IMG/VR virus record: IMGVR_UViG_3300038856_000076
Location: 1 to 57,842 of that record
Length of the DNA: 57,842 bases
DNA from: a virus
Direction: 5' to 3' (one strand)
Shown here: positions 3,088-52,108 of the stretch, in pieces
Position numbering within the stretch: position 1 is the stretch's first letter
Layout of the letters: every line of letters starts with the position of its first letter
The notes under the pieces: model-generated
Database searches by the model: none
Told to the model about the DNA's origin: nothing
Seen by the model: the letters and a program-made list of their open reading frames with translations, nothing else
Program-made: the position numbers and the translations under genes

Positions 3088-3243
3088 ATGAATGAAGAAA
3101 GCTTCGATGATCGTTTGAGTAGGGGTTTTGCGATCATGTCGGGACGTAATCAAGATTTACGACCTGACATGGAATACCTCGATGAAGAGGAATCCAATGG
3201 CAGTGATTATGGTTTAGATGGAGGATATCTTGATGAAGAATGA
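3088..3243 (+). CDS. small acidic hypothetical protein
   Basis: ATG at 3088 lies 5 nt after the primase stop and follows AGGAT. The 51-aa product is D/E-rich. This is shorter than the track ORF at 3055, whose start overlaps the upstream gene. Confidence 0.3.
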   Translation: MNEESFDDRLSRGFAIMSGRNQDLRPDMEYLDEEESNGSDYGLDGGYLDEE

Positions 3244-3907
3244 TGTAGCCGAAGGCAACTTGGCTAGCACAGAGAAAGGTTCTGGCGCAAGACGGAATAG
3301 TGGAAAAGTCGATTTTTCACTTGTACCCTTCCATCTGCTGTCTGGTGTTGCCCGTGTCTTGATGAGTGGTGAGTTGAAGTACAATACTCACAATTGGGCC
3401 AAAGGTATGAAATTTTCATCAAGCTTTAGTTGCTTGATGCGTCATTTAATCAAGTGGTTCTATTGCAAGGAAGACCTTGATGCTGAGACTGGCGAGCATC
3501 ACTTGGATCATGCTATGTGTAATCTTTTATTCTTGAAGCACTACACACGCACCTATTCAGAGGGTGACGACCGGCCACAAGAGTTTACGGACTTCGCGGA
3601 TTGGCTTTCTGACATCAATACTCCATTTGATGCAGACGCATTTGTACATCGTAATCCATTTGTTCTTGGCGAAACCTGGAAACCTCTTCCAAACTTCGAT
3701 GGAATCTACGAAGTATCTGACAAAGGCCGTGTTCGGTCTATAGATCACCAAGGTATGTATGATGTGATTCAAGGACGTATCTTTACCACTGTGACTAATA
3801 GCAGCGGTCAAGAGTTGGTTGCATTATATACCGAGGCAGATGGTTTTGAATCTTTCATAGTTACTGACCTTGTAAAATTGGCTTTTGGAAATGAACAATC
3901 AACCTAG
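3218..3907 (+). CDS. dATP/dGTP-diphosphohydrolase-N-like (DUF5664-like) domain fused to a NUMOD4-like C-terminal module
   Basis: The N-terminal segment (VDFSLVPFHLLSGVARVLMSGELKYNTHNWAKGMKF...EHHLDHAMCNLLFLKHY) resembles the phage dGTP_diPhyd_N family. The C-terminus (WKPLPNFDGIYEVSDKGRVRSI) is a NUMOD4-type motif. An alternative start lies at 3233. Confidence 0.5.
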   Translation: MEDILMKNDVAEGNLASTEKGSGARRNSGKVDFSLVPFHLLSGVARVLMSGELKYNTHNWAKGMKFSSSFSCLMRHLIKWFYCKEDLDAETGEHHLDHAMCNLLFLKHYTRTYSEGDDRPQEFTDFADWLSDINTPFDADAFVHRNPFVLGETWKPLPNFDGIYEVSDKGRVRSIDHQGMYDVIQGRIFTTVTNSSGQELVALYTEADGFESFIVTDLVKLAFGNEQST

Positions 3908-4743: not shown

Positions 4744-5289
4744 TTACTCAGATCGTTTGACCGGGCAGTCTTCACACATCTTCAAGACTACAAGCTGACC
4801 ATTAAACTCACTATCTTTTGATGTGCAGAGTGAGTTGATCTGAATGCAGCCACAATTTTCAACTGTGTTGATCATCTTTCGGTCTAAGCACTTTGGCCAT
4901 TTTGGTATGAAGACCCATGCATTTGGATCACGTGGATTGGCACTCTTTGGCTCATAACCATCAGGACATTTAGGCGGCTCCCAACCAGTCTTGGGATAGA
5001 TCATGGTACCATCCCGTAGAATCTTTGGCTGCTGAAAATCGCGTCTGGCTACCATCCGCTCGTTATTACTGATTGATCGAAAATCCTGTTCAATCCTTAA
5101 TGGACATTCGGCACAATCTTCAGGCGATACATCTTGACCATGCTGAGAACATGATAAATGGGCACAACGATGAATCTCACCTTTGCTCCCATCTTTATTG
5201 TACAGATCAATGGTCCGACGTTTGATACATGGTAGCCAATCCATATCAATCCTCCAAGGAAGCCCCATAGCCAATGGCACTACCACCAA
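4744..5289 (-). CDS. Cys-rich hypothetical protein (late operon, distal end)
   Basis: 181-aa ORF with many Cys pairs (CAECP, CPDGYEP, CGC, CEDCP). It is convergent with the exonuclease gene with no spacer. Alternative starts at 5268 or 5244 would remove the overlap with the upstream gene. Confidence 0.4.
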   Translation of the reverse strand: MVVVPLAMGLPWRIDMDWLPCIKRRTIDLYNKDGSKGEIHRCAHLSCSQHGQDVSPEDCAECPLRIEQDFRSISNNERMVARRDFQQPKILRDGTMIYPKTGWEPPKCPDGYEPKSANPRDPNAWVFIPKWPKCLDRKMINTVENCGCIQINSLCTSKDSEFNGQLVVLKMCEDCPVKRSE

Positions 5290-5806
5290 TATTCTTTAGT
5301 ATGAATGCAGTGGAGAAATCTGTCAAGGCTGTTTTGTAAACTTTGACGCCATAGCGACGTAATTGTTTCCCTGTCACTTGTGTTAGTTTCTTCTGAACTT
5401 CGTCACTCACATTTGTTTGTATGTACTCTAAGTCATGAGATGTAATAATCTCCGTGATTGCTACCATTGTGATATCATTGATGGTATCATTAACATCCCA
5501 GTTTCGACTGAGAGTAGCGACGATATCCTTGATAGCATAAATAACAACACCACCCACCACCACCTGATGTCCGTCCTTTGTCAACAGTGATTGTGATGGT
5601 AGGTTGTGTGTTTGTCTTGCGACAGGGATGATTTCGACTTCCGTGACGATAGGCCAGAATATATGAACGCCGGGACGCATTGCCACAGCGGTTTTCCCAT
5701 GTCTAAATCGAACACCCGCATGGGTAGATCGAACAATTCGGACACGCGGAACAAAACTAGCCAACCATTCCATAAGTTGGCTGACCCAAGCAAATGCACT
5801 TTCCAT
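5246..5806 (-). CDS. hypothetical structural protein
   Basis: 186-aa ORF immediately downstream of the 994-aa fibre-like gene. Confidence 0.4.
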   Translation of the reverse strand: MESAFAWVSQLMEWLASFVPRVRIVRSTHAGVRFRHGKTAVAMRPGVHIFWPIVTEVEIIPVARQTHNLPSQSLLTKDGHQVVVGGVVIYAIKDIVATLSRNWDVNDTINDITMVAITEIITSHDLEYIQTNVSDEVQKKLTQVTGKQLRRYGVKVYKTALTDFSTAFILKNIGGSAIGYGASLED

Positions 5807-26048: not shown

Positions 26049-27725
26049 TTACAAGAATGATTTGATGTCTACACCACGTACATAGGATGCAGCAATAGGC
26101 AATGCGATTTCGCTGTAAACTTTTGCATGGGCATAGTGATCAGCACCTGTTTTGATATAGGTTGCAATCAAATTACCATGCTCATCTTTTTCATAGCTCC
26201 GAACCAGATTTTTCATGTGCTCTCTGTATTCTAAACTTGTGTCGCGTGGCAATGTGATTCGATTTTCAATATGGAAACGACCTAATCCGCAGTCAATCCA
26301 GTTTGTTCGATCTACAGTTGCCATTGGCACCCGCTCATGATCTTCAGTCAATTGAATTGACTTTTGAGGGACACCACGTCGATAGCGACACAAAGTTACA
26401 TAACCAGGAAAGCGTAATGCAAATCGGCGGGCTTCAAGTGTGTTTGGATCAGCATCAACAACGCAATGCAAAACTTGCCATTCTCGCATTAGTTCATCCA
26501 ACTTTCCCCAACCACCCTCGATTTGTGCGTTAAATTTACCATGAAAGACATTCTTACAAATCGCAATTACATTGATGTCTGGCCCGATTTCAGGAAGGAA
26601 CCATTCGTCAATGTTAAAATGCACCCAGTCACCTTGATCAGTACCCATTGTAATGAATCGTTCACCACCAATTGTGGGCCGATCATCTTCTCGGCTGTAT
26701 GATCGAACACAAGCATCGATTTTTGAATCGGTGACTTGACCACCTTCAGGGATGTAAGGCTGACCAACTTTGGACTTATAAAATTCTGACATAGCCCCTT
26801 CGTCACCCATGCCACGAAAATAAGCCGCAGCTACTTTTGATGGTGTGACAGTGAAACTATAAAGTTGGTTGATATTAAAACCTCGTTCATCCTTAGAAGC
26901 ATTCAAATCTGTTGGTTGCCAAAAACCATCGCCCAGAAAACTAGGCTTATCTTCATGATTTAACTTATTGTTGCACTCTGTGCATTTCAGATGTGACTTA
27001 TGTATATCAGGGTCATTGATGGCTTCACCACACAACTCAAATGATTCGGGCCACATAAGTTCAATCGACTTTGAGCAAGATGGACATTTGAAAAAGAAAT
27101 GCTCTTGAGTTGTCGTTTGATATAGTTTATGGATGCCTCGATTCGGCAAAGTTGGTGTGGAGATTGCCCAAATGTTCTGTGTCTTTTGACCGCTCAGTCG
27201 CTCAAACGCCAACCAAATCTGATCTTGATCCATTTCATCGACTTCGTCGAGAATTAGTTCTGACACAGGGATCGATTTTAGGTTACTATCACCACGACTA
27301 CCACGTATATACAGGGTCTGTGTGCCAGCTTGTTTCAAGTTCACTGTATTGATATCCGTGAACATCGATTTGATGTACGGCGAGTATTTCAATGCAGGAG
27401 CAAATCGAGACCGCGAAAAGTCACTGGCATTTAATGCCGTTGGTAGAACATACAATACATCACGTTGCAAAATGTCGAGAATAAAAAACGCTCTGTTGAT
27501 TCCAATTTCGGTGAAACCCATCTGGGCAGCTTTCATCGAAACATTCAGGCTCGCTTTTGAATCATGTGGGCCTTTTGCCCAAGGGTGGTACTTAAAACCA
27601 AAAGGTCCAGAAAAGTCGCCACCCATGACTCGGCGGGCTTCCGCCCATCGTGAGCAAGACGTTAGGGTCTTCGTCTTGATTCCCGACACCAGGGCTTCCC
27701 GAAGTTCATGAACTAGGTCACTCAT
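26049..27725 (-). CDS. terminase large subunit
   Basis: 558 aa, found in the terS-terL-portal gene order. An ATPase-like N-terminal half is followed by a nuclease-like C-terminal half. An internal Cys4 cluster is present (CPSCSKS…CTECNNK). Confidence 0.65.
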   Translation of the reverse strand: MSDLVHELREALVSGIKTKTLTSCSRWAEARRVMGGDFSGPFGFKYHPWAKGPHDSKASLNVSMKAAQMGFTEIGINRAFFILDILQRDVLYVLPTALNASDFSRSRFAPALKYSPYIKSMFTDINTVNLKQAGTQTLYIRGSRGDSNLKSIPVSELILDEVDEMDQDQIWLAFERLSGQKTQNIWAISTPTLPNRGIHKLYQTTTQEHFFFKCPSCSKSIELMWPESFELCGEAINDPDIHKSHLKCTECNNKLNHEDKPSFLGDGFWQPTDLNASKDERGFNINQLYSFTVTPSKVAAAYFRGMGDEGAMSEFYKSKVGQPYIPEGGQVTDSKIDACVRSYSREDDRPTIGGERFITMGTDQGDWVHFNIDEWFLPEIGPDINVIAICKNVFHGKFNAQIEGGWGKLDELMREWQVLHCVVDADPNTLEARRFALRFPGYVTLCRYRRGVPQKSIQLTEDHERVPMATVDRTNWIDCGLGRFHIENRITLPRDTSLEYREHMKNLVRSYEKDEHGNLIATYIKTGADHYAHAKVYSEIALPIAASYVRGVDIKSFL

Positions 27726-27827
27726 GGTGTCTCTTTGTGTCGAGATCGCAAATCGCGGTCAGCACTCTTAAAAGCGGTAGTGGTTACGGCTCAAACCGGT
27801 GACTTTCAACCGCTGCGATCCCCTATA

Positions 27828-28364
27828 TTAGTAGTTTGTGTGATAAGGATCATCCTCAGCAGCTTCCTCAGCAGCTTCCTCAGCAACGTACTCTTCAGAT
27901 TCGATGCCTTCAGGGGCTTCCTCAGCAGCTTCCTCAGCAGCTTCCTCAGCAGCTTCCTCAGCAGCTTCCTCAGCAACATACTCTTCAGATTCGACGCCTT
28001 CAGGGGCTTCCTCAGTAACCGGAGGCTCTAATAAATCTTCCCGGTAAGGGACGATTCGGCCATCCACGTACACATACCCATTACTTATTGGTTCGGAGCG
28101 ATCATTGCAAGGCATCAGTCGAATAACACAATCCGATTCTTTGGCACCGTCAGGTAACTTGACTTTGGCTTCAGTTGCGCCAGGTTGTACACCACCCCAG
28201 CGCTCCAATTTCCCTTGATAGTAAATCTCGATCCTTGTTGGACAAGAACTTTCTGGGACAGGGATTGTAATACGAGTTTTCATTTTGGTTGCCTTATGAG
28301 TGGTTGTATTCGTTTGACGAGGCACACCGCGTGAACAACCGGAACATTCGCTATTTCTTGCCAT
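27828..28364 (-). CDS. putative terminase small subunit with Cys-rich N-terminus and (EEAA)n acidic repeat tail
   Basis: 178-aa ORF immediately upstream of terL. The C-terminal half is a tandem repeat (EEAPEGVESEEYVAEEAAEEAAEEAAEEAAEEAPEGIESEEYVAEEAAEEAAEDD). The terS call is positional. Confidence 0.4.
   Translation of the reverse strand: MARNSECSGCSRGVPRQTNTTTHKATKMKTRITIPVPESSCPTRIEIYYQGKLERWGGVQPGATEAKVKLPDGAKESDCVIRLMPCNDRSEPISNGYVYVDGRIVPYREDLLEPPVTEEAPEGVESEEYVAEEAAEEAAEEAAEEAAEEAPEGIESEEYVAEEAAEEAAEDDPYHTNY
27857..28015. repeat. tandem 12-bp repeat (cagcagcttcct)n nested in a ~90-bp higher-order duplication
   Basis: It lies inside the coding sequence of the 27828-28364 gene and produces repeat-artifact ORFs on the opposite strand (27735-28031, 27836-28018). 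Confidence 0.8.
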
Positions 28365-28716: not shown

Positions 28717-29061
28717 TTAGATGAGGAATGGAATGATGACTAACAACATCTTCACAATCGGAATGATGTTGTCAAGAATCCATTGATAAATTGCCGCCCA
28801 GTCCAACTCGTCAAAGAAGCCACGCACAGTACGTGGATTTTGACGGTAATAAAGACGAGCAACTCGACCACGCCAGATTCGATGCACAGGCACTGGTCGA
28901 GACCAGCCACCACGAGTATCATAACAAACTGGACCAGCATAAACTAGCTTGTCGTACAGTGAAATATCAGCGTTAGGGATCAACCCCTTTTGTTTTGCTT
29001 CAGCATAGGCACGTGTAATCACGTCGCCAAATTGCTTCAAGTTATTGACCTGTGAGATCAT
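28717..29061 (-). CDS. hypothetical protein with C-terminal TM helix
   Basis: 114 aa with a hydrophobic C-terminus (IIPIVKMLLVIIPFLI). Confidence 0.35.
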   Translation of the reverse strand: MISQVNNLKQFGDVITRAYAEAKQKGLIPNADISLYDKLVYAGPVCYDTRGGWSRPVPVHRIWRGRVARLYYRQNPRTVRGFFDELDWAAIYQWILDNIIPIVKMLLVIIPFLI

Positions 29062-29821
29062 AGTTTGTTGAATCCTTCTGCGGTTCGATTATCTTTTCGG
29101 GTTTAGACTCTTGTTCTTTGCGAGTCTTAGTCAAATATTGTTTGATACTATCAATGTATGTCACACCCGTGAAACGGACTTGTTCTTTACCGTTGTCCAT
29201 TACAACAGTCGTGGGCCATACAGACAAGCCAAACTTATCGGCCGTCTTTGGAAATTTATCAGTGTCTAAGTAGATGACGTAATAGCCTTCTCGCCGCAGT
29301 TGTTCAACTACAGGATACATTTGGGGACAATAATGACACCATTTGGCCCCAAATACAATGGCATAATTTTTCAAACAAAAGTCATCTTTGCAAACATATG
29401 GTGGGCATAGACAATCTTTCTCACATTTCTCGCACTTGTCACACTTGTCATCAGTAGAGACTTGCGTTGATTGTGTCCAACCAATTGGATGCTTCATACT
29501 TACTTGATTGCTTTTGATTTCCTTCCAAGTAATCGCTTTAACCACCCTTTCTTCTTGACTAAGGGCACTGTAGGCGTCGGGTCGGAGTTCACTGTAGACG
29601 TTTGGTTCAAGTCCATTGCGTCGTTCGCTATGTCCAAGATTTCGTCGGCTTTTGTTTTCCAATTGACTGGCTTCTTTGTACCAATCGAAATAAGAAGGGA
29701 CCGAAGCCACCGTTTCAGACGTAGCCACAACCCCAGCATTTGTATCTTGCTCATTGGCGAGACTCAGTGTCGGAATAAAAAGAACAAAGGCGATTACCAG
29801 TATACAAATTCGGTTCATCAT
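29042..29821 (-). CDS. secreted thioredoxin-fold protein (signal peptide, WCxxC)
   Basis: The start is set at MMNRICILVIAFVLFIPTLSLA (signal peptide). A Cys-rich linker (CDKCEKCEKDC) precedes a thioredoxin-like segment (FGAKWCHYCPQMYPVVEQL…). Confidence 0.55.
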   Translation of the reverse strand: MMNRICILVIAFVLFIPTLSLANEQDTNAGVVATSETVASVPSYFDWYKEASQLENKSRRNLGHSERRNGLEPNVYSELRPDAYSALSQEERVVKAITWKEIKSNQVSMKHPIGWTQSTQVSTDDKCDKCEKCEKDCLCPPYVCKDDFCLKNYAIVFGAKWCHYCPQMYPVVEQLRREGYYVIYLDTDKFPKTADKFGLSVWPTTVVMDNGKEQVRFTGVTYIDSIKQYLTKTRKEQESKPEKIIEPQKDSTNYDLTGQ

Positions 29822-29965
29822 CGTCTTCCCTCGGAGTGTTGGGTGTGACAATTAAGTTCCGGCTCAATTTAATCAAGCCTACATCGGCTCTACGTGTCCG
29901 ATATTGTTTCTTCCAATCATGTGCAAATGAAACCATCATTACCTCCATTCAAGTTCCCTCGGAGA

Positions 29966-30988
29966 TTAGTACAGGTGGTAATCGAGATGCTGTCGTGGGT
30001 ATCCTATATATGTTGACAAAGCAAATGAATCTTCTTGGGATAACATGTGATCAATGACACTGGCGTCAGCCCAAAATGAACCAGTCGGTTGATCGAAGCG
30101 TGTCGGTCCAGAAATCCAATCTGGCCCCCACGAGTTCATCATCAAACCACCTGATCGACGAATGCTATCATCTACGCCTGCTAACAGCATGCAGTGATAC
30201 CATTTACCATCTCGTTGTGCGAATCCATCCACATCCCGTTCTGATTTGAAGCCAACATTGGAACAGATTGCAACAGGATAACCATTGCACACTGCATCTC
30301 TGGCTTCTTCCCATGTCTTAACAAGTGTAGTCGTTTTGACAGGATGTTCTTTTGCAAATGGCTCAAGTTCATCAGGTACGCCACCACCCCACTCAGTGCA
30401 ACGTCGGCAAATGTGTGCCCACCGACGTGCTTTCGCACCGCTGTAGTTTGTGAAGTCATACTTACCGTCTAAATATGCTTGACGAAGCAAAATGCCCCAT
30501 AGTCTGCACCAATCAGCCGCCCATGTGCCATGCATTCCATCGCCGATAATTTGACCTTTACCGATTTCGACACGACCACCAGCATAGATTGGTTCAGTCG
30601 CACATGTTGTTTTCCACTCTCCGCGACCATGAGCAATTTGTACACAATCTAAGATATCAACACCCAGTCCCCATCCCTGTGAAACACAGTCACCGATACC
30701 CTGATCATGTGGATCAACAGGTTTCTTAGTAACTGCCTCCATGTACTTCCACAAAAAGGCTCGCTTACCAGCACCAGTGCCAGCTAAATGTTTTGCGGCT
30801 TGTCGGAAGTAGGGGACAGGATTAACAGCTTTGAATCGTTTGGTAGATGCTTTATTTGGCAACCACCCAGCATAAATTGGTCTTTTCGTGAGAGATGAAG
30901 CTTTTAGGAGATTCGTGATCCCCATCGACCCAAGTATAAGACTGCCACCAGTGGTTAAAAATTCCCTTCGATCCATTTGTGGCCTCAC
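29966..30988 (-). CDS. Tat-signal papain-like (C1-fold) cysteine peptidase-like protein
   Basis: The N-terminus (MRPQMDRREFLTTGGSLILGSMG) is a twin-arginine signal. QGIGDCVSQGW resembles the papain QGxCGSCW Cys motif. YHCMLLAGVDD resembles the papain His motif, and NSWGPDW resembles the NSWG motif. Confidence 0.5.
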   Translation of the reverse strand: MRPQMDRREFLTTGGSLILGSMGITNLLKASSLTKRPIYAGWLPNKASTKRFKAVNPVPYFRQAAKHLAGTGAGKRAFLWKYMEAVTKKPVDPHDQGIGDCVSQGWGLGVDILDCVQIAHGRGEWKTTCATEPIYAGGRVEIGKGQIIGDGMHGTWAADWCRLWGILLRQAYLDGKYDFTNYSGAKARRWAHICRRCTEWGGGVPDELEPFAKEHPVKTTTLVKTWEEARDAVCNGYPVAICSNVGFKSERDVDGFAQRDGKWYHCMLLAGVDDSIRRSGGLMMNSWGPDWISGPTRFDQPTGSFWADASVIDHMLSQEDSFALSTYIGYPRQHLDYHLY

Positions 30989-31001
30989 TCAGATAGATGA
31001 T

Positions 31002-31760
31002 TTATAGCGAATTGGCATACTCACGTAGTCCTTGGGCAACTTCTCTCCAAACTTGAGCGTGTGACTTGACATCAGAGAGTTGACCGGTTTCGGCCATTGC
31101 TTTCAATTCTTGCATCAACTCATTTAAGACAGGTGTCCAATGTGCGATGTTCCCATTCAAAGCTTCTCGATTCGAGGTAGCGGTGGCTTGAACTAATTCA
31201 GAGGCACTACTAAACGAGTCTTGCTCAATAATGATAGCAACAGAGGCGAATGATTGGGCCAGCTTTAATGCGTCATCGCGTTTTGTGGGTGACTGAACAT
31301 CCTCACACCACTCTTGTACTTTGCCAACGATGTTCTCACCGGGATGTAATGGTGGACCAGTATCGGCACCATAGACTTTGATTTCGTGTGTCTTGATATT
31401 TGAGTCACCAGCCAATGCACATGAGACAATGAACAAGTATGTTACATTCTTGTCGCCAGTACCACAGACGATTGTCTTCCCGTCATTAAAGACGCGAAGT
31501 CCAGGTGGTTCAGGAATGACCTTGTAATCGAACCCTGCTCCGATGCTTTCGGACAGATCAATGACAATCATATCACCAATCTTAACTTTGTCAGGTGCTT
31601 TGATGACAACTTCAGCTTTATCTGTGCGCGGCGTACCGTCATCGGTATCACCAATTACTGCTCGCATGGTTGATGCAGCCGTACCGTTGTTGCTGCAAGC
31701 TACAAAAGCGAGACTTACCATAACCATCAAAACGGCAATGGAATGTACCAATCTTTTCAT
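31002..31760 (-). CDS. lipoprotein (hypothetical)
   Basis: The start is set at MKRLVHSIAVLMVMVSLAFVACS, a signal peptide plus lipobox Cys. Length is 252 aa. Confidence 0.5.
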   Translation of the reverse strand: MKRLVHSIAVLMVMVSLAFVACSNNGTAASTMRAVIGDTDDGTPRTDKAEVVIKAPDKVKIGDMIVIDLSESIGAGFDYKVIPEPPGLRVFNDGKTIVCGTGDKNVTYLFIVSCALAGDSNIKTHEIKVYGADTGPPLHPGENIVGKVQEWCEDVQSPTKRDDALKLAQSFASVAIIIEQDSFSSASELVQATATSNREALNGNIAHWTPVLNELMQELKAMAETGQLSDVKSHAQVWREVAQGLREYANSL

Positions 31761-32894: not shown

Positions 32895-33185
32895 CTATTT
32901 CACGGTGACAGGTTGATTGGTCACAAATCGCAGAGCGATATTGACCACACCCATAACAGTTGCAGCAATCGCCGCCCACTGTGGATTTGCCTGAATGAGA
33001 TCACTTCCTGATAGTGCTGCTACAACGCCAGCGATGGCAGTGATCGCGTTTGCCCAGAAAGTCTTCGATTGTAGAATGGGCTTCCCGTTCATGTTGTTCT
33101 CCTGTGGTTGAGGTTCATTAGGTTTCGGTTGAGGATTAACCGAATCACCATCGCCGGGTACAAGGTCATCATACGGATTACTCAT
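32895..33185 (-). CDS. holin-like small membrane protein
   Basis: 96 aa with two predicted TM helices (FWANAITAIAGVVAALSG; WAAIAATVMGVVNIALRFV) after a P/Q-rich N-terminus. Confidence 0.35.
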   Translation of the reverse strand: MSNPYDDLVPGDGDSVNPQPKPNEPQPQENNMNGKPILQSKTFWANAITAIAGVVAALSGSDLIQANPQWAAIAATVMGVVNIALRFVTNQPVTVK

Positions 33186-33775
33186 GGTTTTTCACCCTCT
33201 TCGTTTTTTGTTTCAATGATGATACCGGCAATTCGGTCACTCAGATCAATAAGGTCATCTTCCCAACCTTCATATTTATCTTGGATTACATCACTGACGG
33301 CATTGACGATAGATTGACCCCAGCGGATCAAAGCTGGTCGGGCAAGCAGAAGGCCGGAAGTAACAGAGAGTCTGTGAAGAGTGTTAGTTAAACGCTCGGC
33401 TTGCATCATCAAGTCAGTCATCTTGCCATAGTTGGCAAGCATGGACGCTTCATCTTCCATTTTATTGCGGTGTGCCGCAATGATGGCATTGAGATCGATT
33501 AGGTTGTCACGAAGTAATTTGACTTCTTGACCTTCTGGGCAATCGATTGAAATTCGACGCCGAAACTGTTCAGTCAGGTAATCTTGCATATCATCCCGTG
33601 GGTCATCCTTTGGACCACCATGAGCGACACATCGCTCACTGCCTTCCACGGACACATTTCGACATTGTTCGCCATTGGGTAAGATACCCTTACATCGACG
33701 CTCGTCATCTAGGTCCGTGACTCGTTCAAAGGACATAACCGTCACAATCTGTATAAATGGAAAATCCAATACCAT
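33182..33775 (-). CDS. first gene of - operon; zinc-ribbon protein (possible regulator)
   Basis: CKGILPNGEQCRNVSVEGSERCVAHGG is a CxxC…CxxH ribbon. The gene is divergent from the + strand promoter region. An alternative start lies at 33736 (MSFERV). Confidence 0.4.
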   Translation of the reverse strand: MVLDFPFIQIVTVMSFERVTDLDDERRCKGILPNGEQCRNVSVEGSERCVAHGGPKDDPRDDMQDYLTEQFRRRISIDCPEGQEVKLLRDNLIDLNAIIAAHRNKMEDEASMLANYGKMTDLMMQAERLTNTLHRLSVTSGLLLARPALIRWGQSIVNAVSDVIQDKYEGWEDDLIDLSDRIAGIIIETKNEEGEKP

Positions 33776-35445: not shown

Positions 35446-35780
35446 TGGGTTGGGCGTCTGGTAGCATGCTTGCAGAAGACGTGTGGGAGATTGTGCGACC
35501 ACATGTCGCATGTGGGCAGCGACGTAAAGTCGCTCGTAAAATTTGGGAAGCATTCGAGTCAATGGACTGTGATACATTAGACGAAGCAGAGCAATTACAA
35601 AAGGATGCTGGCTACGATTACTTTGAATTCTACAAAATGGATGATAACGAAGATGAGTGCAACAAATTTAATTGCCACCAAAAAGCTGAGTATATTGGTA
35701 GTTTAACAGAGAGTCGAACTGTCCAAACATGCTCTAAACACGTTGATGACCTTGAAAACTATGAGGAGATCGGAGAATGA
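35445..35780 (+). CDS. hypothetical protein
   Basis: 111-aa ORF. A GGAG RBS lies upstream and ATGA start/stop coupling is present. Confidence 0.4.
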   Translation: MGWASGSMLAEDVWEIVRPHVACGQRRKVARKIWEAFESMDCDTLDEAEQLQKDAGYDYFEFYKMDDNEDECNKFNCHQKAEYIGSLTESRTVQTCSKHVDDLENYEEIGE

Positions 35781-36469
35781 TCGATCAGATACGCCATAGC
35801 CTATGCATAGGGTTAATACTGCAACTGTGTCTAGCAGCGACTGGGTATACACAAACGATTGCTAAGTCGAGCGTTCGCGTCTATGTCTTCGATGATAGTG
35901 ATAAGTTCTATGACTCAATGGGCTCGGGGACTCTTCTAACGCCCACGCAGGTAATCACAAATTACCATGTCATCAAAGATCGACACAAAGATGATTCAAT
36001 TGAGATTCGATTCTATGATGGCGAACGACGACAAGCTAAAGTTCAAGCCGAAGACAAGGTTTGGGATTTAGCCCTCTTGCAAATTGAGCCTTACCCTAAA
36101 GTCACTCCTCCTCCCATTGGTCGATTACCTAGCAAAGGCGACCATCTGTATATTGCTGGGTTCGGACAGGACTATGAGTACAAAGTCCAAAAGGGTGTAC
36201 TAGAAGGCTATTATGCCCCGAAGACAGGTATGGATGGTGGATGGATGAAGATTGATAATACTGGTGCTCGAAATGGCGACAGTGGTGGCCCAATCAGCAA
36301 CACAGCAGGTCAATGGGTGGGAACATTGTTTGGTTCAATTCAAGAGGGCGATATTCACACCTATGGGACACACGTAAGTCGAATCAAGATTGTCTTTGGT
36401 GACAAGATCAAACTCGGGTCGCCATATGATAATTACATTTTATCGGAGGAGAAACCAGATGGCAAGTGA
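35777..36469 (+). CDS. secreted trypsin-like (S1) serine protease
   Basis: An N-terminal signal peptide is present. The catalytic triad contexts are TNYHVI (His), DLALLQI (Asp) and GDSGGP (Ser). Confidence 0.7.
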   Translation: MIDQIRHSLCIGLILQLCLAATGYTQTIAKSSVRVYVFDDSDKFYDSMGSGTLLTPTQVITNYHVIKDRHKDDSIEIRFYDGERRQAKVQAEDKVWDLALLQIEPYPKVTPPPIGRLPSKGDHLYIAGFGQDYEYKVQKGVLEGYYAPKTGMDGGWMKIDNTGARNGDSGGPISNTAGQWVGTLFGSIQEGDIHTYGTHVSRIKIVFGDKIKLGSPYDNYILSEEKPDGK

Positions 36470-36943: not shown

Positions 36944-37428
36944 TGTTACAGCAGTTATACACAGTATCGTTGCTTATAAAACGCGATGATAAACCTGTTT
37001 TTCCGTGGACAGGCTTTTTTGGATATAAGCCTTGGAAAGAGAAAATCTGTGAAGCCCTGAGATCAGAAGGCCATGAATATGCTGCTAGAGTCGTCGAATT
37101 ATGGGATGGCAAGACGGATTCGATTTATTTTGCAAACAATCTCATACTTGGGACAATCAAAATCGAAGAAGGTAAGAAATTGTACGACCAGAGTTATGAT
37201 ATCCATCTGACTCATACCAATCGACAAATTGTCGCACAGTGGCAAGATGATGAAGGCAATATTATCTGTGACACAAACAAATGTCCCACAGGATATGGCG
37301 TCACTGTATTAGAAGCAATTGGCAGCTTAGTATTGGGCACCATCAATACACATTTAATCGAAAATTCCAACGATATTCTGTCGCAACACTTTTCAATTTT
37401 TGTACCAAAATACACGGGGCATGCATGA
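36943..37428 (+). CDS. hypothetical protein
   Basis: 161-aa ORF. Its stop overlaps the next start (ATGA). Confidence 0.45.
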   Translation: MLQQLYTVSLLIKRDDKPVFPWTGFFGYKPWKEKICEALRSEGHEYAARVVELWDGKTDSIYFANNLILGTIKIEEGKKLYDQSYDIHLTHTNRQIVAQWQDDEGNIICDTNKCPTGYGVTVLEAIGSLVLGTINTHLIENSNDILSQHFSIFVPKYTGHA

Positions 37429-37856
37429 AGATTTACATCGCCGGCCCGTTATTTACCCAAGCAGAACGTCAATGGAATGCTAAACTTGCATCCGCACTAC
37501 GTCAACGATGCACGGCTGAAATTGCTTTGCCACAAGACTTTTGTCGGGGGACAACATCTTCTAAGGTAATGTTTTCTCGTTGCCTTTCTGAATTGACTAC
37601 ATCTCAAGCAGTAGTTCTCAATGCTGATGGTGCTGATGTTGATGCAGGAAGTGCATTTGAAGCGGGTGTTGCTCACCAATTAGGGATTCAATTGGTTAGT
37701 TATCGTACAGACCTTCGTCGGGCTGGTGATTCAGAGTTTGATGTGAATCTTATGCTAGCTCATGCAGGTGCATTCTTGAATTGTCATGGCGACACAGTTG
37801 ATACAGTTGCTTCTAAACTTCTAAAAGAAATCAGAACAAATTACATTGGATACTAA
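37425..37856 (+). CDS. nucleoside 2-deoxyribosyltransferase-like (NDT/DNPH1 superfamily) protein
   Basis: The start is set at MKIYIAGPLF, the hallmark N-terminal motif of the family. A DAGSAFEAGVA segment corresponds to the family's DxGTxxExG motif. Length is 143 aa. Confidence 0.6.
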   Translation: MKIYIAGPLFTQAERQWNAKLASALRQRCTAEIALPQDFCRGTTSSKVMFSRCLSELTTSQAVVLNADGADVDAGSAFEAGVAHQLGIQLVSYRTDLRRAGDSEFDVNLMLAHAGAFLNCHGDTVDTVASKLLKEIRTNYIGY

Positions 37857-49244: not shown

Positions 49245-49509
49245 ATTCATCTTGTACCGTTTGTGGTGGCTTGGTCGGCGACCCCGTATCGTGTCGAAGC
49301 ATATAGGACGTTATGTCCGAGTTCAAATGGATCACAATGTGATTGATGGTATCGTTGTTGCTGTATATGGACCAAATAATTTTCTGTTTTATGCCATTGA
49401 TTCAATAGCACACGGAAATCTACATTGTGATCCATCACGACATTATCCGACCCATCTCGGCTACTTTGTGGCACGGGAACGAGGATTACCGCACAGGCGA
49501 TGCCGATGA
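49237..49509 (+). CDS. hypothetical protein
   Basis: The start is moved to ATG at 49237 (MFRFILYRLWW…). AGAGGAGGA lies 9 nt upstream. Confidence 0.4.
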   Translation: MFRFILYRLWWLGRRPRIVSKHIGRYVRVQMDHNVIDGIVVAVYGPNNFLFYAIDSIAHGNLHCDPSRHYPTHLGYFVARERGLPHRRCR

Positions 49510-50330
49510 TTCTTGATCTGGACGATAATCCCGTTGACACAATCATCAAAGGTGAAGAGTACAAAGTCCCTTGCGTAAATGGACTTCCTGTAGTGTTACC
49601 TTCGCATGTGGATGAAGGTACTGATGGAAAGACGGCACGTCACTGGCATGTGGATAGGCGGTGGGGTGATACGATGCGACCCTTGGAGTTGTTTTGTCGT
49701 CGTACTGAGCAGCACGTAGGTGGTCGCCAATCATTACAACATAACCTTGATGTGGCGATTGTCAAGGATCAAGGCGAACCCATTGAGTACAACATTCTAC
49801 GGGCTCAATGCACAAATGTCATTGCCACAGGCCAGTTATTCTCTTCGTTGGCCTATCTGTATTTGAAACATGGTACCGAGACATCTAAAGATGGGTTCTG
49901 TGTCCATCACCGTACTCAATTGCAATTTGATACACATCATTCTTGTATGACATGTCCCGCACATGGTCTACGATACAACCGTGACAGTACACCTTTCTAC
50001 AAAGCTCCGTTCTTTGTAAAATTGGCAATCGATCATGTGCTTATGGAGTCTTGTGAATTAACTTCAATGAAGCTCCGATTCCATATGAGTGAGGACATTG
50101 AAATGACAGACTATACTCTGTATTTGATGGACTCGAATGAAAAGATAATTGCATTTTGCGACAATTCAATGCCCTCTCCAATAACACTATCCAAAGATGA
50201 CCATTTTGTAGTCACATTCGGAGCATGGCCATCGTCTGACTTTTGTCCAAGCTTTGCACACAAGTCCGAAGAATGCGAGCAGCCAGTGGAATTTGAAATT
50301 GACATTGAATACAGCTACTTGCCTAACTGA
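49506..50330 (+). CDS. Rieske [2Fe-2S]-like protein, paralog 2
   Basis: CVHHRTQL…(15 aa)…CPAHGLRY. The blocks VLPSHVDEGTDGKTARHWHVDRRWG and AWPSSDFCPSF are shared with paralogs 1 and 3. The start is ATGA-coupled at 49506. Confidence 0.55.
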   Translation: MILDLDDNPVDTIIKGEEYKVPCVNGLPVVLPSHVDEGTDGKTARHWHVDRRWGDTMRPLELFCRRTEQHVGGRQSLQHNLDVAIVKDQGEPIEYNILRAQCTNVIATGQLFSSLAYLYLKHGTETSKDGFCVHHRTQLQFDTHHSCMTCPAHGLRYNRDSTPFYKAPFFVKLAIDHVLMESCELTSMKLRFHMSEDIEMTDYTLYLMDSNEKIIAFCDNSMPSPITLSKDDHFVVTFGAWPSSDFCPSFAHKSEECEQPVEFEIDIEYSYLPN

Positions 50331-51036: not shown

Positions 51037-51368
51037 TCCAACGAGGCATATATTGCGGTGAAGAGGAACAATTTCGTGGTCGCATTGCAAATATCTGCAT
51101 CAATGGTGAGTATCTGCGGGCTCAATTTGACAAGGGCAAGTTGTGGGAAACCCACAGTCGGTTGGCTTTTCACACCAATGACTGGAAAGTGATTGAAGAT
51201 GATATTGAAGAGGATGATACTCCTCTTTCTTATCCTGCTAAACGTGAACTTTCTTCCAAAGGACTCTTGTGCTTCTTTGGTTTGTATGCTATATTTGTAG
51301 TAGTGTTGACTTTCGTTATTGGGTTGATGTATCAAAGTTCTGTTGCAGGCTGGCTATTCGGCCAATGA
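51033..51368 (+). CDS. hypothetical protein with C-terminal TM helix
   Basis: The start is moved to ATG at 51033 (MIQRGIYCGEE…). This gives an ATGA overlap, with GAGGAG upstream. Confidence 0.45.
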   Translation: MIQRGIYCGEEEQFRGRIANICINGEYLRAQFDKGKLWETHSRLAFHTNDWKVIEDDIEEDDTPLSYPAKRELSSKGLLCFFGLYAIFVVVLTFVIGLMYQSSVAGWLFGQ

Positions 51369-52108
51369 TCAAAACACTTGAAGGAAAACCGACCGACTGT
51401 GTTCTTGCAGGCTACGATTATTTGGTACCGGCAGTACGAGGAATCCCCGTCGTTGTGCCTTCACATGTTGATGAGGGCAATGATGGTAAAACTTCTCGAC
51501 ATTGGCACGTGGATACACGTTGGGGTAATTCATCAAAGCCTAAGCATTATTGGAATAATGAAACCATTGAAAAATTTCAAGTCCACGATGATCTATGGAC
51601 TTTGATTCTTCGGGACGACGGACAGTCTATTGAGTATGAGCGTTTCACTGCCGAAAAATCCTTCATTTGGCCCACGGGAAGTGCTTGGTCGAGTCTCGTA
51701 TGGCTTTATTATCATTTGGGCGATCTACCTGCCAATAATGGATACTGTGTGCATCACCACACTCGCCTTGACAAATGGGAAGATGAATTGGTCTGCCCGT
51801 CGCACGGCATGCGATTCAAAGCCGATGGGTCACCGCGATTTCAAGGTCCCTTCTTTGTTCAGCTAACTTATGGTGACGCTGTCTCTAAAGTACCGGTCAC
51901 ATTTGATCATGAGTTAGAAATTCCTTTCTCAGTCAAAGTTGAAACACGGGCTCGATTGCAATTGATTGATTCTAATCAGGAAATAGTTGTTGAATCATGT
52001 GATTACATTTTGCTGCCACCTGACGGCGAGTCCTACCTGATTGAAATTATTGCTTGGCCCTCGGATATAAATTGTCCTGCTTTTGCAGAGGAATATTCAA
52101 GACCATGA
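51365..52108 (+). CDS. Rieske [2Fe-2S]-like protein, paralog 3
   Basis: The start is moved to ATG at 51365 (MIKTLEGKP…, ATGA-coupled). CVHHHTRL…(13 aa)…CPSHGMRF. The blocks VVPSHVDEGNDGKTSRHWHVDTRWG and AWPSDINCPAF are shared with paralogs 1 and 2. Confidence 0.55.
   Translation: MIKTLEGKPTDCVLAGYDYLVPAVRGIPVVVPSHVDEGNDGKTSRHWHVDTRWGNSSKPKHYWNNETIEKFQVHDDLWTLILRDDGQSIEYERFTAEKSFIWPTGSAWSSLVWLYYHLGDLPANNGYCVHHHTRLDKWEDELVCPSHGMRFKADGSPRFQGPFFVQLTYGDAVSKVPVTFDHELEIPFSVKVETRARLQLIDSNQEIVVESCDYILLPPDGESYLIEIIAWPSDINCPAFAEEYSRP

What the first reader, a model, noticed from the sequence alone, without database searches (positions are those of the whole stretch)
29042..31760. Secreted/periplasm-directed module inside the late operon: signal-peptide thioredoxin-fold protein, Tat-exported papain-like peptidase and a lipoprotein
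Three consecutive - strand genes encode proteins with three different export signals.
- A Sec signal plus a WCHYCP thioredoxin motif preceded by a CxxC-rich linker (29042-29821).
- A textbook twin-arginine signal (DRREFLTTGG) on a 340-aa protein with papain-like Cys (QGIGDCVSQGW), His (YHCMLLAG) and NSWG motifs (29966-30988).
- A lipobox lipoprotein (LAFVAC, 31002-31760).
No conventional endolysin is recognisable elsewhere, and a holin-like 2-TM protein lies just upstream (32895-33185). A Tat-exported cysteine-peptidase endolysin or envelope-remodelling enzyme, teamed with a periplasmic thiol-disulfide oxidoreductase, would be an unconventional lysis or host-envelope-manipulation system. It also points to a Gram-negative (diderm) host.
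Basis: partly seen in the sequence, partly recalled or inferred. Interest (0 to 1): 0.65.

Follow-up and report, generated by a model that had tools for sequence, protein, structure and literature searches.

The report
Phage exported papain-like protease with thioredoxin
An uncultured phage carries a conserved trio of late genes: a membrane-anchored Ig-like protein, a papain-fold cysteine protease with a twin-arginine export signal, and a secreted thioredoxin; the trio probably attacks the host envelope, but lysis has not been shown.

Summary
The three - strand genes are real. The 336-aa protein (29966-30976) models confidently as a papain (C1) fold, with invariant Gln96, Cys101, His265 and Asn285-Ser-Trp-Gly. 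Its RRxFL Tat motif is kept in about 91 of 120 relatives. Some relatives carry an intein exactly at the catalytic Cys. The family has no Pfam, PHROG or cultured-phage match, yet it occurs on at least 562 IMG/VR contigs.

The downstream gene is a true thioredoxin with a Sec signal. It is functionally tied to the protease:
- A thioredoxin lies just downstream in 69 of 97 loci.
- It accompanies 55 of 57 Tat-type proteases but only 7 of 30 leaderless ones.
- A sister clade fuses the two into one 550-580-aa membrane-anchored protein.

The "lipoprotein" is mainly an N-terminal anchor plus an Ig/PKD domain and a helical bundle. Its lipobox is not conserved (4 of 74).

No canonical endolysin is detectable in the window, but 71 kb of the same contig could not be read. 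A lysis role is plausible from position, the holin-like neighbour and the variety of export signals, but it is unproven. A diderm host is not established.

Verdict: a new variant of a known kind, a reductase-coupled exported cysteine protease module.

The parts
29966..30976 (-). C1 (papain)-fold cysteine peptidase with an N-terminal twin-arginine signal (MDRREFLTTGGSLILGSMGITNLLKA). Predicted catalytic residues are Q96, C101, H265 and N285, numbered from the GTG at 30988. An alternative upstream GTG start lies at 30988.
   Evidence: AF2 model with pLDDT 89.8. Foldseek against PDB: xylellain 2.7e-11, then cathepsins B/L/S/K, cruzain and Lpg2622. The catalytic columns are invariant. hhalign to papain pairs H265 with H159 and NSWG with NSWG. 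Inteins sit exactly before C101 in P0022, P0057, P0078 and P0088. The RRx## motif (# = hydrophobic residue) is present in about 91 of 120 relatives.
29042..29821 (-). Secreted thioredoxin: Sec-type signal peptide, a linker of about 130 aa with a Cys-rich stretch, and a C-terminal Trx domain with WCHYCP.
   Evidence: Pfam PF00085 8.9e-10. TIGR01068 1e-10. PHROG 22. A Trx gene lies downstream of the peptidase in 69 of 97 loci. The two are fused in Schlesneria and at least 36 other proteins.
31002..31760 (-). Partner protein always found directly upstream of the peptidase: N-terminal hydrophobic helix (lipobox-like LAFVAC here only), Ig/PKD-like beta-sandwich (about residues 58-130), and a C-terminal 4-5-helix bundle (about 144-251).
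   Evidence: AF2 pLDDT 88.5. Foldseek gives only Ig/PKD-type matches. Adjacent to the peptidase in 60 of 104 loci. Analogous secreted proteins occur in the leaderless lineage and in Schlesneria, where it is a PKD protein. The lipobox is present in about 4 of 74 homologues.
32895..33185 (-). Holin-like small membrane protein (96 aa, two hydrophobic segments), 1.1 kb upstream of the module.
   Evidence: Weak hits to Phage_holin_1 (E 0.03) and PHROG 297 holin (E 0.017). Hydropathy. Conserved upstream in 35 loci.
33182..33775 (-). First gene of the - strand late operon (197 aa, function unknown). It is a conserved neighbour of the holin-like gene.
   Evidence: Synteny in 20 loci. A sigma-70-like site at 33809-33780 lies just upstream, but this is a consensus match only and not above chance.
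35777..36469 (+). Trypsin-like serine protease with an N-terminal signal peptide; a possible accessory of the module.
   Evidence: Pfam Trypsin_2 3.8e-21. A homologue (27% identity, E 3e-8) lies immediately upstream of the partner-peptidase-Trx genes in L074, and similar secreted proteases occur in L051, L068 and L079.
28717..29061 (-). 114-aa protein with a C-terminal transmembrane segment. It overlaps the end of the thioredoxin gene and is conserved only in the closest relatives.

Best explanation
The region is a conserved late-gene module of three proteins that act together outside the cytoplasm.
1. The 336-aa protein is an active papain-fold (C1-like) cysteine peptidase. It folds in the cytoplasm and is exported by the Tat pathway.
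2. The next gene encodes a thioredoxin, secreted by Sec in this phage. In relatives it is leaderless or fused to the peptidase.
3. The gene upstream encodes a membrane-anchored Ig/PKD-plus-helical-bundle protein.

Proposed mechanism:
- The thioredoxin supplies reducing power in an oxidising compartment. It keeps or makes the catalytic thiol (C101) reduced. C242 and C266 are also conserved, and no structural disulfide pair is conserved. It may also open disulfide bonds in the substrate.
- The peptidase then cleaves protein or peptide components of the host envelope late in infection.
- This contributes to lysis or egress, with the holin-like protein upstream.
- The Ig/PKD partner tethers or targets the enzyme.

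Shown: the fold, the catalytic residues, the export signals, and the genetic coupling (synteny and fusion).
Inferred: the direction of the redox chemistry, the substrate, the timing and the lysis role.
For: Fold and active site:
- The AF2 model has pLDDT 89.8.
- Only C1 peptidases top the Foldseek lists against PDB and BFVD.
- Q96, C101, H265 and N285SWG are invariant.
- His and Asn-Ser-Trp-Gly align to papain H159 and N175SWG.
- Sister-clade members pass Pfam Peptidase_C1.
- Inteins are inserted exactly at the catalytic Cys.

Export:
- The RRx## motif (# = hydrophobic residue) is kept in about 91 of 120 relatives.
- TIGR01409 passes its cutoff on P0099.

Coupling to thioredoxin:
- A Trx gene lies within 2.5 kb downstream in 69 of 97 loci.
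- It accompanies 55 of 57 Tat-type peptidases against 7 of 30 leaderless ones.
- Single-chain peptidase-Trx fusions occur in Schlesneria and at least 36 other proteins.
- Only C101, C242 and C266 are conserved cysteines.

Partner protein: it is always directly upstream.

Lysis context:
- The module lies between a holin-like gene and the terminase, at the head of the late operon.
- No canonical lysin was found in the window by Pfam or PHROG.
- The family shows the Tat, leaderless and membrane-anchor diversity typical of endolysins.
- Some C1-like phage proteins in BFVD carry names such as 'Peptidoglycan binding-like' or 'N acetylmuramidase' (names only, not verified).
Against: - No activity data exist.
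- Characterised peptidoglycan-cleaving papain-like enzymes belong to the NlpC/P60, CHAP and amidase cluster, not to C1 (PMC10318531).
- No cell-wall-binding domain was found.
- The holin assignment is weak (E 0.02-0.03).
- 71 kb of the same contig was not readable, so a conventional endolysin may exist there.
- Mucilaginibacter homologues lie in a glycosyltransferase / polysaccharide deacetylase cluster, not in a prophage.
- In at least 10 related phages the Trx has no signal peptide while the peptidase has a Tat signal. A purely periplasmic Trx role therefore cannot be general.
- The CxxC dipeptide is very variable (CHYC, CGPC, CSDC and others), so the redox direction cannot be read from sequence.
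- The association statistics are not corrected for phylogeny.
Confidence: 0.45

Rival explanations
1. The peptidase is a classical endolysin in the narrow sense. It is a peptidoglycan stem-peptide or cross-bridge endopeptidase exported ahead of lysis by Tat, with the thioredoxin acting only as an activator, much as disulfide isomerisation activates the P1 SAR lysozyme.
For: The module occupies the position of a lysis cassette next to the terminase, with a holin-like gene upstream. No other lysin is present in the window. Some BFVD C1-like phage proteins are named peptidoglycan-binding or muramidase, and mycobacteriophage Lysin A appears weakly. Thiol-dependent phage lysins are known (CHAP, PeiW/PeiP; own knowledge).
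Against: The fold is full two-domain C1, not the compact NlpC/P60 or CHAP fold. No PG-binding domain was found. There are no hits to lysin families in Pfam or PHROG. The conserved companions include a secreted trypsin-like protease, which suggests protein substrates.
Confidence: 0.15
2. The module is a non-lytic envelope-remodelling or superinfection-exclusion system. The exported protease, with the thioredoxin, trims or destroys receptors or other envelope proteins during infection, so that progeny or rival phages are not adsorbed.
For: All three proteins are extracytoplasmic. The Tat-exported enzyme would act before holin triggering. Cellular, non-prophage homologues exist. The contig may encode a normal endolysin elsewhere.
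Against: The module sits at the head of the late/structural operon beside a holin-like gene. Leaderless family members (about 24 of 120) would need membrane lesions to reach the envelope, which fits lysis better. Inteins at the catalytic Cys are usually seen in genes under strong selection (inference).
Confidence: 0.2
3. The peptidase is a maturation protease for other secreted phage proteins, such as the Ig/PKD partner or the trypsin-like protease zymogen, and the host envelope is not its direct substrate.
For: The partner is strictly adjacent upstream. A secreted trypsin-like protease co-occurs. C1 enzymes are commonly processing proteases (own knowledge).
Against: No conserved cleavage motif or propeptide was identified in the partner. 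Many loci lack the trypsin-like gene nearby. This reading does not explain the thioredoxin fusion.
Confidence: 0.1
4. The three genes are unrelated neighbours (morons), and the thioredoxin serves nucleotide metabolism or DNA replication as in other phages.
For: PHROG files the Trx domain under nucleotide metabolism. Short leaderless Trx genes exist in relatives.
Against: The three-gene order is conserved across lineages whose TerL is only about 40-76% identical. A Trx gene lies downstream in 69 of 97 loci. Fusion proteins are recurrent. The window Trx has a signal peptide.
Confidence: 0.03

Closest known systems
Bacterial C1A peptidases xylellain (Xylella fastidiosa, PDB 3ois) and Lpg2622 (Legionella, PDB 6a0n/6a0q)
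   Same: They are the best structural matches. They share the two-domain papain fold, the Gln/Cys/His/Asn-Ser-Trp-Gly active site, an N-terminal extension before the catalytic domain, and secretion from the cell.
   Different: Sequence identity is only 11-15%. The window protein has no Pfam PF00112 hit, lacks the conserved papain disulfides, and uses a Tat signal. It is phage-encoded and genetically coupled to a thioredoxin and an Ig-like partner.
Cysteine-dependent phage lysins: CHAP/NlpC-P60 endolysins (LysK, PlyC, D29 LysA N-terminal domain) and the pseudomurein endoisopeptidases PeiW/PeiP
   Same: They are phage-encoded, have a papain-like catalytic core with a Cys-His pair, depend on thiols (PeiW/PeiP and several CHAP lysins need reducing conditions; own knowledge), and function at the end of infection.
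   Different: They belong to other clusters of the papain-like superfamily (PMC10318531; D29 N-terminal domain = C40). They are compact single domains, usually fused to wall-binding domains, and none is known to use Tat or a dedicated thioredoxin.
Exported endolysins: signal-peptide endolysin Lys44 (phage fOg44) and SAR endolysins (P1 Lyz, activated by disulfide isomerisation)
   Same: The lytic enzyme is exported before holin triggering, and thiol-disulfide chemistry serves as an activity switch (P1 Lyz; own knowledge). The sister clade has Gly/Ala-rich N-terminal anchors reminiscent of SAR domains.
   Different: Those enzymes use Sec, are muramidases, and rearrange their own cysteines rather than relying on a separate thioredoxin. 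A search of open-access papers and bioRxiv preprints for papers holding 'endolysin', 'twin-arginine' and 'phage' listed no title describing a Tat-exported phage endolysin; the papers were not read.
GILT (lysosomal thiol reductase) acting with cathepsins; baculovirus V-CATH
   Same: A thioredoxin-fold reductase paired with C1 peptidases, so that disulfide-bonded proteins can be degraded and the active-site Cys stays reduced. V-CATH is a viral C1 peptidase used to break down the host after replication (own knowledge; a V-CATH fragment appears weakly).
   Different: These are eukaryotic systems with no homology beyond the fold. They do not use bacterial export signals. The comparison is a functional analogy only.
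Two-component lysin PlyC (PlyCA catalytic subunit plus PlyCB binding subunit)
   Same: The catalytic and the targeting functions are encoded by separate adjacent genes, which is a possible model for the Ig/PKD partner.
   Different: There is no sequence or fold similarity to PlyCB. The partner here is membrane-anchored, and its binding activity is untested.

Membership tests
Papain-like cysteine peptidase, C1-type fold (clan CA) | Two-domain papain fold (helical L domain carrying the Cys, beta-barrel R domain carrying the His) | tested here: met
   AF2 pLDDT 89.8 and pTM 0.89. The top 50 PDB matches are all C1 peptidases, E from 2.7e-11 to 4.5e-06. BFVD top matches are named Peptidase C1.
Papain-like cysteine peptidase, C1-type fold (clan CA) | Catalytic Cys and His, with Gln (oxyanion hole) and Asn in the order Q...C...H...N-S-W-G | tested here: met
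   Q96, C101, H265 and N285-S286-W287-G288 are invariant in 30 sequences. hhalign pairs H265 with H159 and NSWG with N175SWG of papain. Inteins sit at C101.
Papain-like cysteine peptidase, C1-type fold (clan CA) | Sequence-level membership of Pfam Peptidase_C1 (PF00112) | tested here: not met
   The window protein has no PF00112 hit at E <= 1, only Peptidase_C39_2 at E 0.08. The distant Schlesneria homologue just passes (21.1 bits against 20.7), as do several sister-clade proteins. The window protein therefore belongs to a separate family with a C1-like fold.
Papain-like cysteine peptidase, C1-type fold (clan CA) | Conserved structural disulfides of papain/cathepsins | tested here: not met
   Only C101 (100%), C242 (91%) and C266 (64%) are conserved cysteines.
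Papain-like cysteine peptidase, C1-type fold (clan CA) | Thiol-dependent, E-64-sensitive proteolytic activity | not testable with these tools
   Needs an enzyme assay.
Tat (twin-arginine) substrate | N-terminal S/T-R-R-x-F-L-K motif | tested here: met
   The window protein has M-D-R-R-E-F-L-T. The RRx## motif (# = hydrophobic residue) lies within the first 25 residues in 91 of 120 relatives, most often as DRRDFLK or DRRNFLK.
Tat (twin-arginine) substrate | Weakly hydrophobic h-region, basic residue in the c-region, AxA-type cleavage site | tested here: met
   The h-region TGGSLILGSMGITNLL stays below the 19-residue Kyte-Doolittle hydropathy (KD19) threshold of 1.6, followed by K-A|SS. This rests on inspection; no SignalP or TatP was available.
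Tat (twin-arginine) substrate | Match to the curated Tat-signal HMM (TIGR01409) | tested here: inconclusive
   The window protein has no hit at E <= 1. P0099 scores 21.3 bits against a cutoff of 16.7. P0040 and P0085 are sub-threshold.
Tat (twin-arginine) substrate | Export dependent on TatABC and abolished by RR-to-KK | not testable with these tools
   Needs an experiment.
Bacterial lipoprotein | Lipobox [LVI][ASTVI][GAS]C after a signal peptide, conserved among orthologues | tested here: not met
   The window protein has F-V-A-C (Phe at -3), which passes only the looser PROSITE-like rule. Of 74 homologues, 3 match the strict rule and 2 the loose rule, one of them a fragment (about 4 real cases); 69 have no lipobox (alignment).
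Thioredoxin-fold thiol:disulfide oxidoreductase | Thioredoxin domain with a CxxC active site | tested here: met
   PF00085 at 39 bits (cutoff 23.5), residues 155-231. TIGR01068 at 1e-10. The motif is WCHYCP.
Thioredoxin-fold thiol:disulfide oxidoreductase | DsbA-type architecture (helical insertion domain, DsbA Pfam family) | tested here: not met
   No DsbA-family hit was found; only classical Trx-type families matched, over about 80 residues.
Thioredoxin-fold thiol:disulfide oxidoreductase | Extracytoplasmic location | tested here: inconclusive
   The window protein has a clear Sec-type signal. In at least 10 related loci the adjacent Trx has no room for a signal peptide.
Phage endolysin | Catalytic domain of a family shown to cleave peptidoglycan | tested here: not met
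   There are no hits to lysin families in Pfam or PHROG. No homologue exists in 50,697 GenBank phage records. The C1 cluster is not among the PG-degrading papain-like groups.
Phage endolysin | Location in a lysis cassette with a holin | tested here: inconclusive
   A holin-like 2-TM gene lies 1.1 kb upstream with weak hits (E 0.017-0.03). The synteny is conserved. No spanin pair was found.
Phage endolysin | Lytic activity / requirement for host lysis | not testable with these tools
   Needs expression and knock-out experiments.
Spanin (for the upstream protein) | i-spanin with an N-terminal TMD and coiled coil, paired with a small OM lipoprotein o-spanin; or a u-spanin with a lipobox and a C-terminal TMD | tested here: not met
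   Only one lipobox candidate exists in 27.7-33.9 kb, and there is no embedded or adjacent small lipoprotein. The protein has no C-terminal TMD. It has an Ig/PKD domain and a globular helical bundle rather than a long coiled coil.

The most novel reading that the evidence does not exclude
The module could be a previously unrecognised reductive-proteolytic lysis system. A phage thioredoxin would open the disulfide cross-links of a proteinaceous or cysteine-rich envelope layer. One candidate layer is the Cys-rich YTV cell-wall proteins of Planctomycetia (PMC12673574). Planctomycetota supply 14 of the 21 genomic homologues. A Tat-exported papain-fold protease, helped by a secreted trypsin-like protease, would then digest that layer.

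This reading would also explain why Tat is used. The folded protease could carry a leaderless thioredoxin across the membrane as a hitch-hiker. That fits three observations:
- Leaderless Trx genes lie next to Tat-type proteases.
- Single-chain fusions exist.
- Trx accompanies 55 of 57 Tat-type proteases.
Probability: 0.2. Interest if true: 0.85.

Novelty: new variant of a known kind. Interest (0 to 1): 0.62.

Why it matters
Phage lysis is understood almost entirely from peptidoglycan hydrolases, holins and spanins of cultured phages. This protease family is present on at least 562 uncultured viral contigs. It is absent from Pfam, PHROGs and 50,697 GenBank phage records. It couples a papain-fold protease to a thioredoxin by conserved gene order and by fusion.

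If the module degrades the envelope, three things follow:
- It would be a new enzymatic route for phage egress, and possibly the first Tat-dependent one.
- It would give a handle on hosts such as Planctomycetota, whose envelopes and phages are poorly known.
- It would provide a redox-switchable protease pair of biotechnological interest.

Even if the module is not lytic, the protease-thioredoxin fusion predicts a clear functional partnership that can be tested directly.

Tried and rejected
- Sequence searches with the peptidase found nothing useful. There was no hit in 50,697 phage records, no meaningful PDB sequence hit, and no PHROG hit.
- CHAP or NlpC/P60 membership was rejected, because the structural matches are full C1 enzymes.
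- A spanin reading of the upstream protein was rejected.
- A conserved lipoprotein reading was rejected.
- I tested whether the 129.5-kb contig is a concatemer of the window. It is not; the flanks have no match in the window.
- PHROG lysis hits (phrog_2252 and phrog_5033) fell on gene 3218-3907. They were rejected as an endolysin, because Pfam shows dGTP_diPhyd_N plus NUMOD4 and no amidase.
- Host identification failed. NCBI-derived cluster members carry no organism names. The spacers match none of the fetched loci.
- Rfam found nothing in the window.
- The promoter and terminator scan was not above chance.
- The small CPxCLGFW membrane proteins near the module in some relatives have no Pfam match and no counterpart in the window.

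Full report
**1. The observation**

The window contains a - strand operon. It starts after a divergent intergenic region near 33.8-33.9 kb and runs through a terminase large subunit (26049-27725), a portal, the head genes and the tail genes.

The three genes of the finding lie between a holin-like ORF and the terminase. Each has a GAGG-type ribosome-binding site in front of an ATG. For the middle gene this makes the ATG at 30976 (MDRREFL...) the probable start, not the GTG at 30988. The resulting 336-aa product is identical to a database protein seen on several sediment-metagenome contigs.

The window is a 57.8-kb piece of a 129.5-kb contig and is not a concatemer of itself.

**2. The peptidase**

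A protein search found 430 relatives, none with a Pfam domain apart from inteins. A scan of IMG/VR found at least 562 viral contigs that encode it. A scan of GTDB genomes found 21 loci. Fourteen of these are in Planctomycetota, and others are in Bacteroidota.

There is no hit in 50,697 GenBank phage records, none in PHROGs, and only a sub-threshold Peptidase_C39_2 hit in Pfam.

Structure and active site:
- An AlphaFold2 model built on a 30-sequence alignment is confident (pLDDT 89.8, pTM 0.89).
- Foldseek against the PDB returns only C1 peptidases. Xylellain leads at 2.7e-11, followed by cathepsins B, L, S and K, cruzain and Legionella Lpg2622.
- The invariant columns of the alignment are exactly the C1 catalytic set: Q96, C101, H265 and N285-S-W-G.
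- A profile alignment to papain pairs H265 with H159 and NSWG with N175SWG.
- Four relatives carry inteins inserted as IGD|C...HN|CVSHGW. The catalytic Cys is therefore the +1 residue of the C-extein. This is a typical intein site and independent evidence that this Cys lies in a critical motif.
- A distant homologue and many sister-clade proteins pass Pfam Peptidase_C1.

I therefore take the papain-like fold and active site as established. The protein belongs to a separate family, not to PF00112 itself. The papain disulfides are not conserved; only C101, C242 and C266 are conserved cysteines.

**3. The export signals**

*Peptidase.* The N-terminus has RREFL, a Gly/Ser/Thr-rich and weakly hydrophobic h-region, and a Lys before an A|S site. 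At family level the twin arginine is the telling feature:
- 91 of 120 relatives have RR-x-hydrophobic-hydrophobic within the first 25 residues, most often as DRRDFLK.
- The curated Tat HMM passes its cutoff on one relative but does not reach the window protein.
- About 24 of 120 relatives are leaderless and start 5-15 residues before an invariant GW.
- A sister clade has Gly/Ala-rich N-terminal membrane anchors.

*Thioredoxin.* It has a textbook Sec signal.

*Upstream protein.* It has a strongly hydrophobic N-terminus. The lipobox-like LAFVAC is peculiar to this sequence and a few others, about 4 of 74. Its model shows an N-terminal helix, an Ig/PKD-like sandwich and a C-terminal helical bundle, with only Ig/PKD structural matches.

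**4. The genes form a module**

The order holin-like gene ... partner - peptidase - thioredoxin ... terminase - portal recurs in about 60 fetched loci, whose terminases are 40-76% identical to the window's.

Where tblastn missed a thioredoxin, the ORF right after the peptidase is still a divergent secreted thioredoxin. One of these passes Pfam PF00085 at 26 bits. With a local HMM, 69 of 97 loci that have room carry a thioredoxin within 2.5 kb downstream.

The association tracks the export signal. A thioredoxin accompanies 55 of 57 Tat-type peptidases but only 7 of 30 leaderless ones (Fisher 8e-13, but the loci are not phylogenetically independent).

Most telling is the Schlesneria sp. T3-172 chromosome. 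It encodes a single 573-aa protein made of a membrane anchor, the peptidase and a C-terminal thioredoxin (CGVC). A PKD-domain protein precedes it. Such fusions are common: at least 36 of the 120 best relatives of that protein are fusions of 550-580 aa.

A second viral lineage with a leaderless peptidase keeps the order secreted trypsin-like protease - secreted Ig partner - peptidase - small secreted thioredoxin. The window encodes a homologous secreted trypsin-like protease at 35777-36469.

In at least 10 loci the thioredoxin next to a Tat-type peptidase has no room for a signal peptide.

**5. What it most likely does**

Shown:
- an exported papain-fold cysteine peptidase;
- a thioredoxin genetically welded to it;
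- an anchored Ig/PKD partner.

Inferred:
- The thioredoxin keeps or makes the catalytic thiol reduced in an oxidising compartment, or opens disulfides in the substrate, or both.
- The peptidase cuts envelope proteins or peptides late in infection.

Arguments for a lysis or egress role:
- The position is that of a lysis cassette next to the terminase.
- The holin-like neighbour is conserved, though its holin hits are weak.
- No recognisable lysin is present in the window.
- The family mixes Tat, leaderless and membrane-anchored forms, as endolysins do.
- Some uncultured-phage C1-like proteins in BFVD are named peptidoglycan-binding or muramidase (names only).

Arguments against:
- Characterised peptidoglycan-cleaving papain-like enzymes belong to the NlpC/P60, CHAP and amidase cluster, not to C1 (PMC10318531; D29 LysA N-terminal domain = C40).
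- No wall-binding domain was found.
- Mucilaginibacter homologues sit in a glycosyltransferase / deacetylase cluster.
- 71 kb of the contig is unseen.

My confidence is about 0.8 that this is a functional, exported, thioredoxin-coupled cysteine peptidase. It is about 0.45 for the full model that includes an envelope-degrading, lysis-related role.

**6. Comparison with known systems**

Structurally the enzyme is closest to the secreted bacterial C1A peptidases xylellain and Lpg2622.

Functionally the nearest precedents are:
- thiol-dependent phage lysins (CHAP/NlpC-P60 lysins and PeiW/PeiP);
- exported endolysins (the signal-peptide type and the SAR type, the latter switched by disulfide isomerisation);
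- the two-gene lysin PlyC;
- by analogy, the GILT-cathepsin pair and baculovirus V-CATH.

None of these combines a C1 fold, a Tat signal and a dedicated thioredoxin. A search of open-access papers and bioRxiv preprints for papers holding 'endolysin', 'twin-arginine' and 'phage' returned 38; none of the 15 listed titles describes a Tat-exported phage endolysin, and the papers were not read.

**7.

Sec, Tat and lipoprotein signals do not discriminate diderms from monoderms, so the diderm inference does not follow. Attempts to identify the host failed.

The strong Planctomycetota bias of the genomic homologues and the reported Cys-rich YTV wall proteins of Planctomycetia (PMC12673574) motivate the most novel reading: reductive-proteolytic lysis of a disulfide-bonded proteinaceous layer, with Tat allowing a folded protease-thioredoxin complex to cross the membrane. 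I give this a probability of about 0.2.

**8. Verdict**

The real finding is a widespread, unannotated phage module in which a papain-fold protease is coupled to a thioredoxin and an Ig-like anchor. It is a new variant of known kinds (exported lytic enzymes, C1 peptidases). It is worth experimental follow-up, and its function is not yet proven.

Noticed in passing
window 56572-56869 (+): A CRISPR-like mini-array. The 36-nt repeat GTTGCAGTGGCTGCTCAGTGCCTCATAAACTGAGAC occurs in 5 copies: one degenerate, one truncated to 22 nt, one with a small indel. Spacers are 36-37 nt. No cas genes were seen in the window. One spacer (56681-56716) was not found in the otherwise identical ENA contig copy (L106), which suggests array variation between assemblies.
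   Followed up: partly
window 35777-36469 (+): A secreted trypsin-like serine protease (Pfam Trypsin_2 3.8e-21) encoded among the early genes. Homologues lie directly beside the partner-peptidase-thioredoxin module in another phage lineage (L074, L051, L068, L079).
   Followed up: partly
P0022, P0057, P0078, P0088; loci L008, L037, L054, L067, L072, L079: Inteins (Hint / homing-endonuclease type) are inserted exactly before the catalytic Cys of the peptidase (IGD|C...HN|CVSHGW). An intein in a Tat-exported enzyme implies that splicing occurs before export.
   Followed up: partly
window 42221-44680 (+) and 5246-5806 (-): An 819-aa protein with major-vault-protein shoulder / Vault_3 Pfam hits, and a separate SPFH/Band_7 protein at the end of the tail module. 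Both are unusual phage cargo.
   Followed up: no
window 37856-38404 (+), 37281-37856 (+), 3218-3907 (+): Auxiliary genes: a peptide deformylase, a nucleoside 2-deoxyribosyltransferase, and a dATP/dGTP diphosphohydrolase fused to NUMOD4. The last one draws misleading PHROG 'endolysin; inhibits RNA polymerase' hits.
   Followed up: partly
window 39224-39976, 49500-50330, 51269-52108 (+): Three paralogous proteins of about 250-280 aa with faint Rieske-like hits (shared motif HWHVDRRWG...CVHHRTQL...CPAHG) are scattered through the early region.
   Followed up: no
window 27806-28031: A short tandem coding repeat gives an acidic EEAAEEAAEE tract in the 178-aa protein just upstream of the terminase (possibly the small terminase subunit). 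Overlapping ORFs in other frames are artefacts of the repeat.
   Followed up: no
loci L043 9009-9299, L050 7434-7706, L059 9232-9513, L027 4650-4910, L073 4750-5013: In relatives, a conserved membrane protein of about 90 aa with a CP(I/V)CLGFW motif lies between the thioredoxin and the terminase. It has no Pfam match and no counterpart in the window. It could be a membrane redox partner or a holin.
   Followed up: partly
loci L097, L098, L099, L104 (Pirellulaceae MAG BC1.9): Four copies of the leaderless peptidase with the same neighbours occur in one genome, which suggests a repeated mobile element or multiple prophages.
   Followed up: no
window 57013-57057 and 57247-57602: A 15-nt tandem repeat (TCGAGAGTCACCGTT, 3 copies) and a 23-nt inverted repeat with arms 310 nt apart lie in the non-coding right end of the window. 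This could be an origin or a packaging region.
   Followed up: no
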